In this document: in pieces, positions 36,381-58,346 of the stretch
Numbering within the stretch: the first letter of the stretch is position 1
Layout of the letters: each line of letters begins with the position of its first letter
IMG/VR virus record: IMGVR_UViG_3300038393_003162
Coordinates: 148,407-212,406 of that record
DNA: 64,000 bases
Reading direction: 5' to 3' (one strand)
Source: a virus
Taxonomy: Duplodnaviria; Heunggongvirae; Uroviricota; Caudoviricetes
Position numbers and translations under genes: made by a program
Notes under the pieces: model-generated
Told to the model about the DNA's origin: nothing
Databases searched by the model: none
The model's input: the letters and a program-made list of their open reading frames with translations, nothing else

Positions 36381-36509
36381 TGGCTGGTCCTTGATTCGAA
36401 CAAGGTCTTCGTCCTCCGAATGGAATGTAATGCCTTTACAGTATTCGGGGAAGCCCCGACAAGAATGAAAGACATCTTTTTTCGCGTGCATCCATTACAC
36501 TAACCAGCC
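36381..36509 (-). ncRNA. expanded tRNA-like RNA (129 nt): 7-bp acceptor stem GGCTGGT/ACCAGCC, D-arm, canonical T-arm CCTTG-TTCGAAT-CAAGG, about 80 nt of extra hairpins
   Basis: Manual fold of the minus strand; perfect acceptor complementarity; no CCA encoded. Confidence 0.45.
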
Positions 36510-36512
36510 TAG

Positions 36513-36647
36513 CGAGTGGTGTAGGATTCGAACCTACAAGAACGGGTTAAAAGCCATGTACTCCTATCTAAGTATTCGTACCCCTAAAGGAACGACAAGA
36601 AGCGACAAGAGAATTTTACGTCGTTTTGCCAATTAAACTAACCACTC
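36513..36647 (-). ncRNA. expanded tRNA-like RNA (135 nt): acceptor GAGTGGT/ACCACTC, T-arm GTAGG-TTCGAAT-CCTAC, 6-bp stem AACGAC/GTCGTT around a 23-nt loop, plus a 54-nt extra arm
   Basis: Manual fold; tandem to the 36381..36509 element with a 3-nt spacer. Confidence 0.45.
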
Positions 36648-36720
36648 TAAAAATGCTCGACAAGAAACGGCAAGTGAATTCATAATAAACACCATGTACA
36701 CCTAGCCAATATTCGAGCAA

Positions 36721-36859
36721 TGAACGGCGGGGGAATCGAACCGCCCGACACGCAGTTTTGCAATGTATTCCCGTCTATTATTTCTAGTCCTCGTTGAGAA
36801 GACCAGAACAAGGATCGACGAGATCCAGGTCTGCCGCTCTACCTCTGAGCTAGCCGTTC
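36721..36859 (-). ncRNA. expanded tRNA-like RNA (139 nt): acceptor GAACGGC/GCCGTTC, canonical D-arm GCTC-AGAGGTA-GAGC, stem AGACC/GGTCT around a 23-nt loop with a nested GGATC-TCGTC-GATCC hairpin, 53-nt extra arm
   Basis: Manual fold; same architecture as 36513..36647. Confidence 0.45.
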
Positions 36860-37182
36860 AAAATTGGGTGCTGATTGACCCAAAGTAAGAACAAATCCAG
36901 GGCGGGATTTCTCGTTCTACTCACAATCAGCAGTGCGGGTGATTGGGTTTGAACCAATCTTCGTCGAGCCGGTTTATTAGACCAGAGACTTTACCATGTA
37001 ATCCTTCCTAAGTATTTCCCAAGACAAGTCCCAGGAACAAGCATCGGAAAGATCGTTGCCCGCATTTTGACCAGTAGCAACATCCTGCCACCCGGTCATA
37101 GGTTTGTAAGTGATTAACTTATACCTAATATACTATATTTATCCACAAAAGTCAAGAAGTTTTTTATAAAAATCCAAATTTT

Positions 37183-37389
37183 TCAATAAGTCTCGACTGA
37201 CCCGTCATTGTATTCGACCTTAATCGACTTAATCGCCTTCTTGCCGACATGAACAGCGTCGGGATTCTCAACTGCGAAGCTCTGAACCCAATTGCCGGTG
37301 CGATAGACCTTGATCAAGTACCACGCCACCTTAATCGAGAACCAGACCGCCTTGAAGAAAAGCCAAATAGCACTCAATACAAGCATCAT
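37183..37389 (-). CDS. small membrane protein (68 aa)
   Basis: Hydrophobic N-terminus MMLVLSAIWLFF. Confidence 0.35.
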   Translation of the reverse strand: MMLVLSAIWLFFKAVWFSIKVAWYLIKVYRTGNWVQSFAVENPDAVHVGKKAIKSIKVEYNDGSVETY

Positions 37390-37569
37390 TTAAATAATCC
37401 TATTCAAAAGAAAACCAGTCGGCAGGATACAGGTAATCCTCGCCAGAGTCATCGACAACGCGGAGCATCCCATACGCTGCCGACTGGCTACAGGTCAGTA
37501 CCTCATATATCTTCCCAACCGTGAGGGAATAGAGGTGCTGTTCTCTCTCTAGACATTTAGCACGTAAAA

Positions 37570-39192
37570 TCAAATCTCGACCTTATCGATTTCGTTGAGC
37601 CAGAAGTCCGAGGCGTTACCACCTCTGGCAAAGGCTGCCATAACATCGAATACATTGTCACTGAATCCGGCAACCGTGAGGATATCCGGTCGCTCCTTGA
37701 CCTGAGCCGTGGTGTTCGGCGAGATGTCTACGCTGATCAGGCGAGCGGCTGGATTGTGCTTCTTGTATCGGAGCCATTCCTCGTGCATCCTTGTGCCGTT
37801 GCCGCGATTGTAGTAATTGGAGCTATCGACCCAACTCTCGTTGTCCGACAGGAACAGGACGGTATCCGCCTTGTAGCCCTCCAAGTTCAACAACGCCAAC
37901 GGTGCCGAGCAATTCGTGCCACCACCGAGCAACTTGGTCAGAACAGCAGCATTGGTCATGATCGAATCGCGACTGTTCAGCGTCACCGGCTTCACGCCGT
38001 TCGCGAACGGGATGACCCGTGCCGACCTGTTCTTGCGAATCAACGCCGAAGCAATCAATGCTGCCACATCGATGTTACGGATGACAGAGGTCGCCCCGAC
38101 TCCACGATCACCCGTAACGGCGTTGCCCATGCTGCCTGAGACATCAACGGCAATGACCAGATTCCCGAGGGAAGGGACATTGTCCAGCGAAATCTCGACC
38201 GCGTCCTGAAGTGCTTCGCCGATCGCGTGCGGCACCGAATTCCTTGTCGCCAAAAAGGCAGTGAACAACTGGTACGGGAAGACTCGGGACCTGTGGATCG
38301 CATCGACATCCCGCAAGCGGTCAGCAATGACCTCAACCATTTCAGGACTGTTGAGAACGCCGTGGCGAACCGCAGTGTTCAGGTTCATCCTTGTGAAGTG
38401 CCAGGGGGCATTTCGGAATACCTCGACCCAATGCTCCGTACTCAGACCCAGAGAGTCCAGGTAGCGGAAATCGACTGCAGGAACTCCGATATCGCCATTC
38501 TTGTCCCGCTTGAAGGCTTCGTAGTGCTTGACCAACGAAGGCAAGTCCTCTGTCGTGGAACCGAGCGTACCGCCCTCGCGGATCGCTTGGATGTGATTCC
38601 ACTTGAATTCGTTGTTGAAGAGGTACTTCAGCAACGCCTCCTTCTCCTTGGTCTCAGGCTTGACGTGCGCCTGTCGTAGTACGCCGACCAGGGACGGACT
38701 GGTCCCGACGCTGTCGTTGAACAACGTCTCGCTTCGCCTGGTGTTGAACCAACGGTTGATCATCTGACGATGAGCCGACGAGGAAAGGTTGATCGCCTTA
38801 CCCGCAGCCCCGCTCCGAGCGATCTGGGCGTAATTACGGAGCATCTTCCCGTTGTCGATGACTCGTGGGAAGACCTTCTTCCAAAGGTCGATATCGCGAA
38901 GATACAAGACGGCTGTCAGATAGGCTGGCATGTCCTTCATGAACCCCTTGGTTCGCGAGACTACCGCAATCTTCGCCAGACGCAGCGGAGTCACCTCATA
39001 CGCCAGTCGCTTGACATCATCCAACTGGCTCTGTGCCGAGGTATAGAACGTCGAATTGAAACAGCCAGTGAAAGCGAATTGGGCGAGTGCGTGGTCGGCA
39101 GTGTGCTTGTAGGCAACGCCACCCACATGATTGACGGTGTCGGTCGCAGGGGTATTGTATCGAGGTGCCGCAAATAAAGTCTGATTAGCCAT
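37570..39192 (-). CDS. TROVE-domain (Ro60/Rsr-like) protein with C-terminal vWA/MIDAS
   Basis: 540 aa; LVIAVDVSGSMGN MIDAS motif in the C-terminal third with a preceding large helical region, as in Ro60 orthologs; SD-like AAGGCAAGG upstream. Confidence 0.65.
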   Translation of the reverse strand: MANQTLFAAPRYNTPATDTVNHVGGVAYKHTADHALAQFAFTGCFNSTFYTSAQSQLDDVKRLAYEVTPLRLAKIAVVSRTKGFMKDMPAYLTAVLYLRDIDLWKKVFPRVIDNGKMLRNYAQIARSGAAGKAINLSSSAHRQMINRWFNTRRSETLFNDSVGTSPSLVGVLRQAHVKPETKEKEALLKYLFNNEFKWNHIQAIREGGTLGSTTEDLPSLVKHYEAFKRDKNGDIGVPAVDFRYLDSLGLSTEHWVEVFRNAPWHFTRMNLNTAVRHGVLNSPEMVEVIADRLRDVDAIHRSRVFPYQLFTAFLATRNSVPHAIGEALQDAVEISLDNVPSLGNLVIAVDVSGSMGNAVTGDRGVGATSVIRNIDVAALIASALIRKNRSARVIPFANGVKPVTLNSRDSIMTNAAVLTKLLGGGTNCSAPLALLNLEGYKADTVLFLSDNESWVDSSNYYNRGNGTRMHEEWLRYKKHNPAARLISVDISPNTTAQVKERPDILTVAGFSDNVFDVMAAFARGGNASDFWLNEIDKVEI

Positions 39193-57287: not shown

Positions 57288-57293
57288 ATCATA

Positions 57294-58043
57294 TTAACTT
57301 GCTTGTGACTTAAGCTTGGTCCAATATCCTCTTGTCGGCTTTTCAATGCCATATGATTTAGCCCATTTTGCCACTGCACTGTCGGAGACATCATATGTCT
57401 CGGCTATAACCATCGTTGGAATTTGCCATAACATTTTTTCTAACTCTTCTTTAGTCGGACGTTCTACCTTGCGTCGTTGAAGTTTTTCACACTTAGAACA
57501 TCGTTCAGATATTTTCAATATCTCAACATTGCAGTCTATACATTTGTTTCTTGGTTTCCTGTTTGTATTTTTGCCAGCAAATGTTTCAGTTTGAGTGTGA
57601 CAATTAGGGCACAGAAATCTAAGATTTTCTCGTCTATTATCATTCCTTATGCCATTTATATGATCCAAGGACAAAGCCAACTGATTATCTAACCAAACAG
57701 GACCTAGTCCGCATGTTTGACACTCATAAGGTATTATGCCGTCCTTAATGAGTCTTTTTCGTAAAGCATGCCGACTATAAGTCGAATTTTCTACCATCAC
57801 TTCGTCTAGTGGCACAGCATGACCAGGGAATTTTCTATTCTTATTGCTGGCTCTTCCTTGCACAATGTGCGAATGATCTATCTCATCGTGGTCAAGACGA
57901 TCTTTTAATGTGCGAATATTGCCACCAATATTATTCAATCCAAAAAAGCTCAATATATTACTATAAGTTGAACTTTTAGCAACTAATTCAGCCATATTTG
58001 ATGATGGTATTTTCCAAATAGGACTTCTTTTTTTACGACTCAT
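57294..58043 (-). CDS. HNH endonuclease
   Basis: CQTCGLGPVWL…LDHINGIRNDNRRENLRFLCPNCH plus extra CxxC pairs. Confidence 0.7.
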   Translation of the reverse strand: MSRKKRSPIWKIPSSNMAELVAKSSTYSNILSFFGLNNIGGNIRTLKDRLDHDEIDHSHIVQGRASNKNRKFPGHAVPLDEVMVENSTYSRHALRKRLIKDGIIPYECQTCGLGPVWLDNQLALSLDHINGIRNDNRRENLRFLCPNCHTQTETFAGKNTNRKPRNKCIDCNVEILKISERCSKCEKLQRRKVERPTKEELEKMLWQIPTMVIAETYDVSDSAVAKWAKSYGIEKPTRGYWTKLKSQAS

Positions 58044-58068
58044 TATTTAATCCGAATTACATTAGAAG

Positions 58069-58144
58069 TTCCGGGGGCTAGAATCGAACTAGCGACCTTC
58101 TCGTTCAAAGCGAGTTGCGGCATACCATCAGCCGCCGCCCCGGA
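58069..58144 (-). tRNA. tRNA-Gln (anticodon UUG)
   Basis: Acceptor TCCGGGG/CCCCGGA, D-arm GCGG…CCGC, anticodon loop CTTTGAA, T-arm GCTAG-TTCGATT-CTAGC. Confidence 0.6.
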
Positions 58145-58156
58145 ATTTAACTACAG

Positions 58157-58229
58157 AGCTTCCTCTCGGATTTGAACCGAGACCATCTCGTTACGGGCGA
58201 GACATTCTTGCCAGTTAAACTAAGGAAGC
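58157..58229 (-). tRNA. tRNA-Thr (anticodon CGU), C33
   Basis: Acceptor GCTTCCT/AGGAAGC, anticodon arm TCTCG-CCCGTAA-CGAGA, T-arm CTCGG-TTCAAAT-CCGAG. Confidence 0.55.
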
Positions 58230-58236
58230 ATTTGAG

Positions 58237-58346
58237 TGGACAGGGCAGGACTCGAACCTGCGACCTCTAGACGGTTGCCCGTTTTTCAAGCTATCGCCCG
58301 AAGGCGATGTTTAGTGCCCGCGCTCTTGCCGCTGAGCTACCTGTCC
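58237..58346 (-). ncRNA. expanded tRNA-like RNA (110 nt): canonical acceptor, D-arm and T-arm with a 60-nt central region holding two tetraloop hairpins
   Basis: Acceptor GGACAGG/CCTGTCC, D-arm GCTC-AGCGGCAA-GAGC, T-arm GCAGG-TTCGAGT-CCTGC; inserts ATCGCC-TTCG-GGCGAT and ACGG-GCAA-CCGT. Confidence 0.5.

What the first reader, a model, noticed from the sequence alone, without database searches (positions are those of the whole stretch)
36381..58346. Family of at least 7 tRNA genes with 10-65 nt insertions between the D-arm and T-arm
Elements at 36381-36509, 36513-36647, 36721-36859, 45928-46025, 47070-47152, 48355-48466 and 58237-58346 all keep a 7-bp acceptor stem, usually a canonical D-arm and a TTCGANT T-arm. 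Each carries an extra structured insert, often GNRA or UUCG-type tetraloop hairpins, in the anticodon-arm region. Two show a stem, 23-nt loop, stem arrangement consistent with a 7-nt anticodon loop plus a 16-nt insert. Bacterial phage tRNAs are not known to carry short non-group-I introns. The options are archaeal/eukaryotic-style short introns, tRNA-derived regulatory or decoy RNAs, or Y-RNA-like molecules.
Basis: seen in the sequence. Interest (0 to 1): 0.8.

Follow-up and report, generated by a model that had tools for sequence, protein, structure and literature searches.

The report
Phage Y RNAs built in tRNA order
Three of the seven "tRNAs with inserts" are really Y RNAs, the partner RNAs of the Ro60 protein encoded next door, built on a tRNA frame with the Ro60-binding stem where the anticodon loop should be, a gene layout I could not find described; the other four are unrelated, odd tRNA-like genes.

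Summary
All elements lie on the minus strand of a huge-phage tRNA region. The trio at 36381-36859 sits just downstream of a Ro60 (TROVE/vWA) gene (37570-39192) and behind a sigma70-like promoter. It belongs to a six-member cluster: four tRNA-shaped RNAs and two plain hairpins. All six carry one conserved module: helix S2, an internal loop (..YUUG / AUAY), helix S1 ending ..CGA, then UACAU. A profile of this module hits 137 sites in 82 sources, all on the Ro60 strand. Its helices covary strongly. In bacterial rsr loci the same module (GGCGAAUGC..UACAU) forms the terminal stem of canonical YrlA Y RNAs and matches the published GNCGAAN0-1G Rsr motif. The trio are therefore YrlA-type Y RNAs, but circularly permuted: the acceptor stem is open as in a tRNA and the Ro60 stem is capped. 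They are not intron-bearing tRNAs. The other four lack the module. 47070-47152 is a conserved anticodon-less tRNA-like RNA with G3.U70. 58237-58346 has a tRNA body with a non-conserved anticodon domain. 45928-46025 and 48355-48466 are weak. Verdict: observation partly confirmed; a new variant of a known kind. Ro60 binding is inferred, not shown.

The parts
37570..39192 (-). Ro60 (TROVE + vWA) gene, 540 aa; protein partner of the RNAs
   Evidence: Pfam vWA_Ro60 at 1.2e-16. 7428 homologs, many annotated 60 kDa SS-A/Ro or TROVE. Best PDB hit is D. radiodurans Rsr 2NVO at 1.9e-17, followed by human and Xenopus Ro60.
37127..37155 (-). Sigma70-like promoter TTGACT-17-TATATT in front of the Y RNA cluster
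   Evidence: Scan result. Equivalent CTTGACA..TAnAAT boxes sit ahead of the clusters in L002, L005, L008 and L009 (read). Function is inferred.
36934..37064 (-). W0: Y RNA with acceptor stem (UGCGGG/CCCGCA) and T arm (AUUGG-UUCAAAC-CCAAU) but no D arm; Y module at 36994-37053 plus an extra arm
   Evidence: nhmmer hit at 37018-36995. 11/11 helix pairs. The MFE fold shows S2-loop-S1. Homologs at L002 8653-8790 and L005 8232-8355.
36862..36932 (-). Conserved hairpin between W0 and W1 (stem GCUGAUUG/CAAUCAGC; motif UCCCGCCCUGGA); not a Y module
   Evidence: Folding z-score -3.4. The same motif occurs in the equivalent spacer of L002. Function unknown.
36721..36859 (-). W1: tRNA-order Y RNA. Acceptor GAACGGC/GCCGUUC, D arm GCUC-AGAGGUA-GAGC, anticodon-like stem GCAG/CUGC, Y module at 36761-36823, T arm
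   Evidence: (z -3.5). Ortholog at L002 9024-9150.
36654..36719 (-). Wb: plain hairpin Y RNA (YrlB-like). S1 is formed by the 5'/3' ends (GCUCGA/UCGAGC) and the apical loop starts with UACAU
   Evidence: Folding z-score -4.0. nhmmer hit at 36715-36693. 11/11 pairs, linear type.
36513..36647 (-). W2: tRNA-order Y RNA. Acceptor GAGUGGU/ACCACUC, D arm GUUU/AAAC, Y module at 36554-36611, T arm GUAGG-UUCGAAU-CCUAC
   Evidence: (15.5 bits).
36381..36509 (-). W3: tRNA-order Y RNA. Acceptor GGCUGGU/ACCAGCC, D arm GUGU-AAUGGAU-GCAC, Y module at 36423-36475 (S1 UCGGGG-CUU-CCCCGA), T arm CCUUG-UUCGAAU-CAAGG
   Evidence: (z -3.4).
36312..36379 (-). We: plain hairpin Y RNA. S1 is AAAACUGA/UCAGUUUU
   Evidence: Folding z-score -2.1. 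nhmmer hit at 36372-36351. 11/11 pairs.
47070..47152 (-). Anticodon-less tRNA-like RNA: full tRNA body, G3.U70 and A73, 6-bp stem with a 16-nt loop CAAAGGGCAGGUCCCC; not a Y RNA
   Evidence: Rfam tRNA 44.8 bits with the loop skipped. In the homolog L082 6794-6876 the stem is fully compensated and the loop core AAAGGGCAGGUCCC is identical. No Y module.
58237..58346 (-). tRNA body whose anticodon arm is replaced by 52 nt: stem CGGGC/GCUUG, ACUAAAC, a UUCG-capped hairpin, and a GCAA-capped variable-arm-like hairpin; not a Y RNA by the module test
   Evidence: Rfam tRNA 46.8 bits with the arm skipped. Folding z-score -3.1. The most similar element in the relative, L082 7131-7224, shares the 5' and 3' parts but has an 8-nt loop and no UUCG hairpin. 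No Y module.
45928..46026 (-). Weak tRNA-like element: 7-bp acceptor, 4-bp T stem, poor D arm, 11-nt loop, long extra arm
   Evidence: Read. No Rfam hit at E<=1. Folding z-score -1.5. No homolog found. No Y module.
48355..48466 (-). Weak tRNA-like element: acceptor with G1.U72, T arm, no clear D arm; compact hairpin AUCCC..GGGAU followed by GUACG
   Evidence: Read. No Rfam hit. Folding z-score 0.0. No homolog found. No Y module.
35742..36293 (-). Peptidyl-tRNA hydrolase PTH2 gene directly after the Y RNA cluster; this synteny is conserved
   Evidence: Pfam PTH2 at 2e-27. The order Ro60, RNA cluster, PTH2 recurs in L002, L005, L008, L009 and phage Mx1.
39226..39897 (-). vWA-domain protein gene immediately upstream of Ro60
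   Evidence: Pfam VWA at 2.2e-5. A vWA gene also lies near Ro60 in phage Mx1 and in the bacterial locus L081.

Best explanation
The three elements at 36381-36859 are Y RNAs of the YrlA kind. Y RNAs are non-coding RNAs that bind the ring-shaped Ro60 protein, which is encoded directly upstream.

Each RNA carries one conserved Ro60-binding module. It consists of helix S2 (with a near-invariant U.G pair) followed by UACAU, an asymmetric internal loop (..YUUG opposite AUAY/AUGC), and helix S1 whose 3' strand ends ..CGA. This gives the motif (G)NCGAAUAY.

In canonical YrlA the 5' and 3' ends of the RNA form S1. The tRNA-like domain (T arm, closed acceptor-like stem, D arm) sits at the far end of the stem. 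Here the same parts are circularly permuted. [quoted passage not shown]

Inferred steps, not shown: RNase P and 3' processing cut the tRNA-shaped members out of the precursor, which also frees the two plain hairpin Y RNAs lying between and after them. CCA is then added, since it is not encoded, as for this phage's ordinary tRNAs. Ro60 binds the module. The tRNA-shaped end then tethers Ro60 to a tRNA-recognising partner or to a nuclease, as in known Ro60-Y RNA-PNPase particles, for RNA surveillance, repair or decay during infection.

The other four elements are not part of this system. 47070-47152 is a conserved anticodon-less tRNA-like RNA of unknown role. 58237-58346 is a tRNA body with an idiosyncratic anticodon domain. 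45928-46026 and 48355-48466 are poorly supported, possibly decayed tRNA-like genes.
For: 1. Ro60 identity and position. Pfam vWA_Ro60, 7428 homologs, PDB Rsr/Ro60 hits. The RNAs lie 0.7-1.3 kb downstream on the same strand.

2. Fold. MFE folding recovers S2, internal loop and S1 in all five sequences folded, with z-scores from -1.9 to -4.0. It also recovers it in W0. The L009 homolog folds as a perfect cloverleaf with a long arm in the anticodon position.

3. Conservation near Ro60. Relatives with 50-73% identical Ro60 (L002, L005, L008, L009) have the same promoter and the same mixture of tRNA-shaped and hairpin RNAs after Ro60.

4. Strand association. A profile of the module's 3' half gives 137 hits at E<10 in 81 loci plus the window. 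All are on the Ro60 strand and none on the other. The window has six hits, all in this cluster.

5. Helices. 67 of 103 non-redundant hits have a perfect 11/11-bp partner in the right geometry, against 3% with shuffled flanks.

6. Covariation. 232 cells changed on both sides against 62.6+-7.5 in shuffles. The covariation score is 0.872 against 0.21 shuffled and at most 0.136 for slid partners.

7. Link to known YrlA. A pattern scan of bacterial genomes hit 9 Ro60 loci among 120 mostly chance matches. There the module is the terminal stem of RNAs in canonical YrlA order: GGCGAAUGC..UACAU, T arm, closed stem, D arm GUAGCUCAnnGGUAGAGC..CUYGUCGCC. GGCGAAUG fits the published Rsr motif GNCGAAN0-1G (PMC4201824). 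The phiLo study used the same CGAA motif to find Yrls that bind phage Ro60 in vitro (PMC12135203).

8. Register. The acceptor stems are 7 bp within each element and differ between elements and phages. The alternative YrlA register across neighbouring elements gives only 3-4 bp stems (read).
Against: No experiment or RNA-seq is available. Ro60 binding, the RNA ends and CCA addition are all inferred.

Rfam 15 gives no Y RNA hit here or in related loci, so family assignment rests on my own profile and on the motif from the literature.

The window clade has GAAUAC where most others have GAAUGC, so its match to GNCGAAN0-1G is only partial.

The alignment used for the formal covariation count was selected for fully paired helices, and the helix partners were chosen by maximising pairs. 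The unbiased support is therefore the shuffled-flank control, not the 100% pairing.

W1 and its L002 ortholog would leave ..CU-GCA-AAA.. if 66 or 53 nt were removed, so a spliced tRNA-Cys cannot be formally excluded for that one pair.

I could not read the 2020 and 2018 Wolin reviews, so the layout may have been noted there.
Confidence: 0.8

Rival explanations
1. They are genuine tRNA genes interrupted by short introns, archaeal/eukaryal-type or a new bacterial type, that are spliced out to give decoding tRNAs.
For: ARAGORN -i can force five of the seven into intron models. W1 and its ortholog L002 9024-9150 both give GCA after removal. RNA-repair-type genes occur in this phage group: RlaP in the window, RNA ligase in L085, Tpt1/PTS_2-RNA in L008 and L009.
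Against: The 'intron' positions differ (30/31 to 35/36) and none is the canonical 37/38. The deduced anticodons are inconsistent, including 'stop' tta, and tac drawn from the conserved UACAU. No bulge-helix-bulge motif is visible. The 'intron' is a conserved, covarying module that also exists as free-standing hairpins and as the terminal stem of YrlA. No RtcB or splicing endonuclease was found among the 30 ORFs scanned.
Confidence: 0.04
2. They are tRNA genes or pseudogenes disrupted by insertion of a small mobile repeat. In this view the module is a MITE-like or selfish hairpin, and the tRNA shape is a remnant without function.
For: The module is repeated six times within 0.8 kb and many times in other phages. 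HNH endonuclease genes are scattered through the tRNA array.
Against: Every copy is on the Ro60 strand (137 to 0). The copies differ by compensatory changes rather than being near-identical. Acceptor, D and T stems stay intact and covary between phages. Orthologous positions are kept in relatives with 50-73% Ro60 identity. No target-site duplications were seen.
Confidence: 0.04
3. All seven, plus other odd tRNA-likes in the array, are one functional class of anticodon-less tRNA decoys. They would soak up host anticodon nucleases or tRNA-binding defence proteins, and Ro60 linkage would be incidental for three of them.
For: The phage carries several tRNA-like genes with abnormal anticodon domains: 8-nt loop at 46027-46103, 11 nt at 45928, 16 nt at 47070, 52 nt at 58237. 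47070 is conserved, with a compensated stem. Similar 83-nt anticodon-less tRNA-likes occur in other Ro60 phages.
Against: The four distant elements share no module with the trio or with each other. Two of them have no statistical or comparative support. The trio's insert is specifically the YrlA Ro60 stem. Nothing links the four to a nuclease.
Confidence: 0.1
4. The trio are canonical, permuted YrlA RNAs read in the wrong register. Each real RNA would start in the Ro stem of one element and end in the Ro stem of the next.
For: The elements are tandem; W2 and W3 are 3 nt apart. Both share inner acceptor bases UGGU/ACCA, so a 4-bp cross-element stem is possible.
Against: Cross-element pairing gives only 3-4 bp for the would-be acceptor-like stem and S1, and no S2. 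Within-element pairing gives 7-bp acceptor stems, 6-9 bp S1 and 7-8 bp S2, and is what MFE folding returns. Single, isolated tRNA-order copies exist in L008, L009 and L012.
Confidence: 0.02

Closest known systems
YrlA (Y RNA-like A) of bacteria and mycobacteriophages (Chen et al. 2014, PMC4201824; Wang et al. 2018, bioRxiv 10.1101/312249)
   Same: Both are encoded within about 1 kb of Ro60/rsr on the same strand. Both have a Ro60-site motif (GNCGAA..) in a long stem. Both have a tRNA-like domain with D arm, T arm (UUCGA loop) and acceptor-like stem. The Ro stem occupies the anticodon-stem position. The D stem GCUC/GAGC, or a GUGU..GCAC flavour, matches bacterial and mycobacteriophage YrlAs seen here.
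   Different: The topology differs. YrlA runs 5'-Ro strand, V, T, closed acceptor-like stem, D, Ro strand-3', with no free CCA end. The window RNAs run 5'-acceptor, D, Ro stem (capped), V, T, acceptor-3', that is tRNA order with an open 7-bp acceptor stem. The window clade also has GAAUAC instead of GAAUGC.
[quoted passage not shown]
   Same: The end product has an open 7-bp acceptor stem with tRNA-like 5' and CCA 3' ends, attached to a Ro60-binding stem. This is the same predicted architecture as the window RNAs.
   Different: There it arises by cutting a closed loop, which gives a two-piece RNA with four ends. Here it would be a one-piece RNA encoded directly in that form.
Hairpin Y RNAs: YrlB (Salmonella, M. 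smegmatis), Yrn2 (D. radiodurans), Yrl1/Yrl2 of Thermus phage phiLo (PMC4201824; PMC12135203)
   Same: The two plain hairpins at 36654-36719 and 36312-36379 have a terminal stem formed by the 5'/3' ends with the CGAA motif and a small apical loop. They are co-transcribed with tRNA-like Y RNAs.
   Different: Sequence similarity beyond the CGAA motif was not tested. The phiLo Ro60 is only distantly related.
Circularly permuted tRNA genes of red algae and some archaea (cited in bioRxiv 10.1101/312249)
   Same: They show that tRNA-shaped RNAs can be encoded in either circular order. They were invoked by the YrlA authors to explain YrlA's layout.
   Different: Those are true tRNA precursors, rearranged by splicing into decoding tRNAs. 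Here there is no anticodon loop in either order.
Intron-containing tRNAs (BHB introns of archaea and eukaryotes; group I introns in bacterial tRNA genes)
   Same: There is extra sequence in the anticodon region of a tRNA-shaped gene.
   Different: There is no BHB motif, the segment is too short for group I, the positions are not canonical, the sequence is conserved and covarying, and it exists independently as a Y RNA hairpin.

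Membership tests
YrlA-type Y RNA | Encoded close to (within 4 kb) and on the same strand as a Ro60/Rsr gene | tested here: met
   The cluster at 36312-37064 is 0.5-1.3 kb downstream of Ro60 (37570-39192), on the same strand. The four other elements are 6.7-19 kb upstream.
YrlA-type Y RNA | Ro60-site motif GNCGAAN0-1G in a stem | tested here: inconclusive
   The window copies read CCCGAAUAC, UACGAAUAC, UAGAAAUAA, CUCGAAUAU and ACUGAAUAC. 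The CGAA/GAA core is kept but the trailing G is A. Relatives and bacterial YrlAs with the same module read GGCGAAUGC, a full match.
YrlA-type Y RNA | tRNA-like domain with T arm, D arm and acceptor-like stem | tested here: met
   W1-W3 have all three parts. W0 has acceptor and T arm only. The two hairpins have none, so they are YrlB-like.
YrlA-type Y RNA | 5' and 3' ends form the Ro60-binding stem, and the acceptor-like stem is closed by a loop (permuted relative to tRNA) | tested here: not met
   In W0-W3 the Ro stem S1 is capped by a 3-15 nt loop and the acceptor stem is open. This makes them a topological variant, not canonical members.
YrlA-type Y RNA | Bound by Ro60/Rsr; modified by TruB and DusA | not testable with these tools
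   This needs immunoprecipitation, EMSA or modification mapping.
Shared Y module (S2-UACAU / internal loop / S1-CGA), applied to the four distant elements | Match to the profile of the module's 3' half | tested here: not met
   nhmmer at E<=1000 on the isolated sequences gave hits only in 36381, 36513 and 36721. None was found in 45928, 47070, 48355 or 58237, nor in 46027 or 58351.
Intron-containing tRNA | Removing the insert restores a 5-bp anticodon stem and a 7-nt loop with U33, at a consistent (37/38) position, with a BHB motif at the boundaries | tested here: not met
   The ARAGORN -i models place inserts at 30/31, 31/32-33, 34/35 and 35/36, with mismatched stems and anticodons tta, gca, cta and ccc. 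No BHB motif is seen in the sequence.
Canonical tRNA | Rfam RF00005 score above gathering, with the anticodon arm aligned | tested here: not met
   Only 58237 and 47070 score above 29 bits, and both do so with the anticodon arm or loop skipped as a local end. The other five have no hit at E<=1.
Alanine-accepting tRNA-like RNA (considered for 47070-47152) | G3.U70 pair and A73 in a 7-bp acceptor stem | tested here: met
   GGGGCAG/UUGCUCC-A in the window and GGGGUAG/CUACUCC-A in L082 both keep G3.U70 and A73. That these bases are AlaRS identity elements is from established knowledge. Charging itself is not testable here.

The most novel reading that the evidence does not exclude
Huge phages use the tRNA body as a general scaffold for displaying RNA modules in place of the anticodon loop. 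The Ro60-binding version is encoded in true tRNA order. It would therefore be matured by RNase P/Z and the CCA-adding enzyme into a one-piece RNA with a chargeable end. This RNA would bring Ro60 to tRNA-handling machinery (aaRS, EF-Tu, ribosome, tRNA repair enzymes) or act as bait for host tRNA-targeting defences. It would also be the missing evolutionary intermediate between a tRNA and the permuted YrlA. Elements such as 47070-47152 (G3.U70, invariant 14-nt loop) and the 83-nt CCA-ending tRNA-likes in other Ro60 phages would be further members of this scaffold class, carrying other ligands.
Probability: 0.25. Interest if true: 0.8.

Novelty: new variant of a known kind. Interest (0 to 1): 0.62.

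Why it matters
Y RNAs and Ro60 are conserved from bacteria to humans, where Ro60 is a lupus and Sjogren autoantigen. How the tRNA-like end of bacterial Y RNAs works, and where it came from, is still open.

The YrlA authors proposed that YrlA resembles a circularly permuted tRNA and speculated about processing to a more tRNA-like form. Here the un-permuted form is encoded directly, in several huge-phage lineages, next to Ro60 and among tRNA-metabolism genes (PTH2, Thg1-like, GatB/YqeY-like). This gives three things:
- A natural test of whether a free acceptor end matters for Y RNA function.
- A plausible evolutionary intermediate between a tRNA and YrlA.
- A warning that tRNA finders run with intron options will annotate such RNAs as intron-bearing or suppressor tRNAs in phage genomes.

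It also shows that phage Ro60 loci can carry arrays of many Y RNAs of three architectures.

Tried and rejected
- Megablast of 36-60 kb against the GenBank phage collection gave no match.
- A single-protein Ro60 scan of IMG/VR found nothing. An alignment query was needed.
- Rfam gave no Y RNA family hit in the window, in relatives, or in an acidobacterial rsr locus. I saw no obvious Y RNA by eye in that locus, L081.
- My first regex for the module was both too strict and too loose. I replaced it with an nhmmer profile.
- MAFFT on natural module sequences misaligned S1 and the cap (A2). I replaced it with a cap-trimmed, N-padded structural alignment (A3).
- The shared string GAAA(AA)CGGGCAA between 58237-58346 and L037/L053 suggested a divergent Y module. 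I rejected this because the profile finds nothing in 58237 and the order of motifs does not fit.
- An IMG/VR scan for the 47070 loop core AAAGGGCAGGTCCC gave 60 hits, none in a tRNA-like context.
- tblastn of 32 window ORFs against the held loci found no syntenic region for 45928 or 48355. The closest relative's array (L082) has no detectable counterpart for either.
- Two Wolin-lab reviews could not be opened.
- The profile found no module in Myxococcus phage Mx1, the closest cultured phage (Ro60 41.9% identical). A look-alike GGAAUGCGGUGGGACGUACAG lies after its Ro60 gene.

Full report
**What is at the coordinates.** Everything in the finding lies on the minus strand of a region that carries 24 ordinary tRNA genes between 40.3 and 63.8 kb. 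The genes around it include a GatB/YqeY-like gene, a Thg1-like gene, PTH2, HNH endonucleases, an RlaP-type nucleotidyltransferase and glycan-synthesis genes. The same DNA occurs on Logan contigs of 50 kb to more than 200 kb, and relatives lie on 600-kb contigs. This is therefore a huge phage. Its Ro60 is about 50% identical to those of Acidobacteria.

Default ARAGORN calls only one of the seven elements, 47070-47152, and gives it a 4-nt anticodon. The Rfam tRNA model reaches its threshold only for 58237-58346 (46.8 bits) and 47070-47152 (44.8 bits). In both cases it skips the anticodon arm or loop. ARAGORN with introns allowed forces five of the seven into models whose 'introns' sit at 30/31, 32/33, 34/35 or 35/36. 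The resulting anticodons are tta, gca, cta and ccc. Reading the sequence confirms 7-bp acceptor stems and T arms in six elements and good D arms in five. So the tRNA-like shape with extra sequence in the anticodon region is real for five elements. It is doubtful for 45928-46025 and 48355-48466, which have no Rfam hit and folding z-scores of -1.5 and 0.0.

**The key context.** The ORF at 37570-39192 (minus strand, 540 aa) is a Ro60 protein.
- Pfam gives vWA_Ro60 at 1.2e-16.
- There are thousands of TROVE/Ro60 homologs.
- The best solved relative is D. radiodurans Rsr (2NVO, 1.9e-17), followed by human and Xenopus Ro60.

The three elements at 36381-36859 lie directly downstream on the same strand, after a TTGACT-17-TATATT promoter at 37155-37127. 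Bacterial Ro60 binds Y RNAs. The widespread class, YrlA, has a tRNA-like domain and is encoded within 4 kb of rsr on the same strand (PMC4201824).

**A shared module.** The inserts of the three elements share one architecture with two intergenic stretches (36654-36719 and 36312-36379) and one further tRNA-like element (36934-37064). Minimum-free-energy folding finds this architecture on its own. It has three parts:
- Helix S2 (7-8 bp), followed on its 3' side by UACAU.
- An asymmetric internal loop, with about 8 nt ending in YUUG on one side and about 6-7 nt starting with AUAY on the other.
- Helix S1, whose first pairs are U-A, C-G and G-C, so that its 3' strand plus the loop reads ..CGAAUAY.

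In the two intergenic copies S1 is made by the ends of a 65-70-nt hairpin. In the four tRNA-shaped copies S1 is capped by a loop and S2 continues into a 4-5-bp stem at the anticodon-stem position.

**Comparative evidence.** Phages whose Ro60 is 73, 71, 60 and 50% identical (L002, L005, L008, L009) have the same layout: Ro60, a promoter, a mixture of tRNA-shaped and hairpin RNAs with this module, and then PTH2. A Ro60 alignment retrieved 69 more viral contigs.

A profile HMM of the module's 3' half gave 137 hits at E<10 in these sources. All were on the Ro60 strand and none on the opposite strand. The window has exactly six hits, all in the cluster.

Of 103 non-redundant hits, 67 have a perfectly paired partner (5 bp of S1 plus 6 bp of S2) in the expected geometry. 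With shuffled flanks the figure is 16 of 515.

On a structural alignment of 66 such modules, the formal pair count gives these values:
- 232 cells changed on both sides, against 62.6+-7.5 in shuffles.
- A covariation score of 0.872, against 0.21 in shuffles.
- At most 0.136 when partners are slid.
- The first S1 pair is always U-A, and the fourth S2 pair is U.G in 64 of 66.

One caveat applies. This alignment was selected for full pairing, so the 100% paired value is by construction. The shuffled-flank control is the unbiased test.

**Link to known Y RNAs.** A pattern scan of bacterial genomes for CGAATGC..GGNNTACAT must return mostly chance matches. Even so, 9 of the 120 loci returned carry a Ro60 homolog with the match right beside it on the same strand. 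These come from Acidobacteria, Planctomycetes and an alphaproteobacterium, and one is followed by an RtcA-like ORF, identified from memory by its GGGQILR motif and not scanned against Pfam.

In those loci the RNAs are in canonical YrlA order: GGCGAAUGC..UACAU, variable region, T arm, closed acceptor-like hairpin, D arm GUAGCUCAnnGGUAGAGC, then ..CUYGUCGCC. GGCGAAUG is the published Rsr-site motif GNCGAAN0-1G. The CGAA motif was also the handle used to find the Yrl RNAs that bind Thermus phage phiLo Ro60 in vitro. A mycobacteriophage locus shows the same canonical order. The module is therefore the Ro60-binding stem of YrlA.

**What is different here.** In canonical YrlA the RNA ends form the Ro stem and the acceptor-like stem is closed. 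The literature describes YrlA as resembling a circularly permuted tRNA without a free CCA end (bioRxiv 10.1101/312249). In the window the order is acceptor 5' strand, D arm, Ro stem with capped S1, variable region, T arm, acceptor 3' strand. This is true tRNA order with an open 7-bp acceptor stem.

Reading the tandem elements in the YrlA register instead gives only 3-4-bp stems. Isolated single copies in L008, L009 and L012 fold as cloverleaves with a long arm.

In my census of 103 modules from phage loci:
- 54 are plain hairpins.
- 14 are in YrlA order.
- 14 are in tRNA order, from 7 sources (6 loci plus the window). By eye the layout is also present in L012, L057, L037 and L062.
- The rest are unresolved or capped without a T-loop motif downstream.

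I saw no tRNA-order copy in the nine bacterial loci.

**Mechanism.** The following are shown: the neighbourhood, the module, its covariation, its identity with the YrlA Ro stem, and the tRNA-order topology.

The following are inferred:
- The precursor from the 37155 promoter is cut by RNase P and 3' processing at the tRNA-shaped members. This would also release the hairpin Y RNAs that abut them: 36720/36721, 36647/36648 and 36380/36381.
- CCA is added, because it is not encoded. It is not encoded in the phage's normal tRNAs either.
- Ro60 binds the module.
- The tRNA-shaped end recruits a tRNA-recognising factor or nuclease, by analogy with Ro60-Y RNA-PNPase particles.

**The other four elements.** None carries the module, even at E<=1000.
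- 47070-47152 has a homolog in the closest relative (L082 6794-6876). Its 6-bp stem AUUUGG/CCAAAU is replaced by UCCGA/UCGGA. The loop core AAAGGGCAGGUCCC is identical, and both copies keep G3.U70 and A73. This is a conserved, anticodon-less tRNA-like RNA that may be an alanine acceptor. Its function is unknown.
- 58237-58346 shares its 5' and 3' thirds with L082 7131-7224. That element has an 8-nt loop, a long variable arm and no UUCG hairpin. The insert is therefore not conserved.
- 45928-46026 and 48355-48466 have no detectable homolog, no Rfam support and no folding signal. They share a GUGUAAUGG-type D region with W3 and with mycobacteriophage YrlA. 48355 contains GGGAUGUACG, reminiscent of GGGAUUACAU, but lacks the CGAAUAC half. 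I regard them as possibly decayed relatives and make no claim about them.

**Verdict.** The real feature is a six-member Y RNA cluster. Its tRNA-shaped members are a circular permutation of YrlA, which makes this a new variant of a known kind.

Noticed in passing
window 58351-58436 (-); L082 4351-4430: ARAGORN calls a tRNA with anticodon GCA (Cys) but a long variable arm (86 nt, type II-like body). The related phage has a GCA-anticodon element with a 6-bp anticodon stem and an aberrant D region at the equivalent place in the array.
   Followed up: partly
window 46027-46103 (-); L082 7032-7120 and 7131-7224: tRNA genes with 8-nt anticodon loops (UUGCAAGG in the window; Rfam 39.8 bits). ARAGORN reports 4-nt anticodons. 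The related phage has similar 8-nt-loop genes with long variable arms.
   Followed up: partly
window 36862-36932 (-); L002 about 8795-8850: A well-folded hairpin (z -3.4) between two Y RNAs, with the motif UCCCGCCCUGGA conserved in the related phage. It is not a Y module and its function is unknown.
   Followed up: partly
L065 4261-4343, L069 15949-16031, L075 15775-15857, L077 16953-17035: 83-nt tRNA-like genes in other Ro60 phages. They have encoded CCA, a 5-bp anticodon-like stem that covaries (CAACG/CGUUG vs CAAGG/CCUUG), and a 15-nt loop AUACCGYAAGGAAAA containing a GNRA mini-hairpin. The design is the same as 47070-47152 but the sequence is unrelated.
   Followed up: no
L082 4761-4878; L015 18727-18845; L069 18135-18266: 'Double' tRNA-like genes: one acceptor stem encloses two D-arm-like and/or two T-arm-like hairpins. 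They recall the dimeric-tRNA origin proposed for YrlA.
   Followed up: no
L196 7198-7792 (Pirellulales MAG): Five Y RNAs with the same module, mostly in canonical YrlA order, in tandem directly after a Ro60 gene in a bacterial MAG contig. L152 (Pyrinomonadaceae MAG) has a tRNA array next to Ro60 and may be a binned phage.
   Followed up: partly
window 22911-23936 (-): RlaP-family (RNA repair pathway, pol-beta type) nucleotidyltransferase gene. Related phages carry an RNA ligase (L085 2408-3160) and Tpt1/PTS_2-RNA (L008 4297-5202, L009 2210-2752) near Ro60.
   Followed up: no
window 600-24700: A long run of about 280-320-aa ORFs on alternating strands. It includes methyltransferases, UDP-galactopyranose mutase and a polysaccharide-synthesis epimerase, so it is a glycan-synthesis block in a phage. 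Several ORFs have no Pfam match.
   Followed up: partly
window 57294-58043 (-) and 48664-49332 (-): HNH endonuclease-like genes inserted within the tRNA array. They are similar to each other and to HNH genes at other places in related phages.
   Followed up: no
L148 11175-11215 (Myxococcus phage Mx1, OR576727.2 about 59090-59130): After the Ro60 gene of this cultured phage lies UUCGGAAUGCGGUGGGACGUACAG, a near-match to the Y module that the profile missed. It is unannotated in GenBank. Mx1 could serve as an experimental system.
   Followed up: partly
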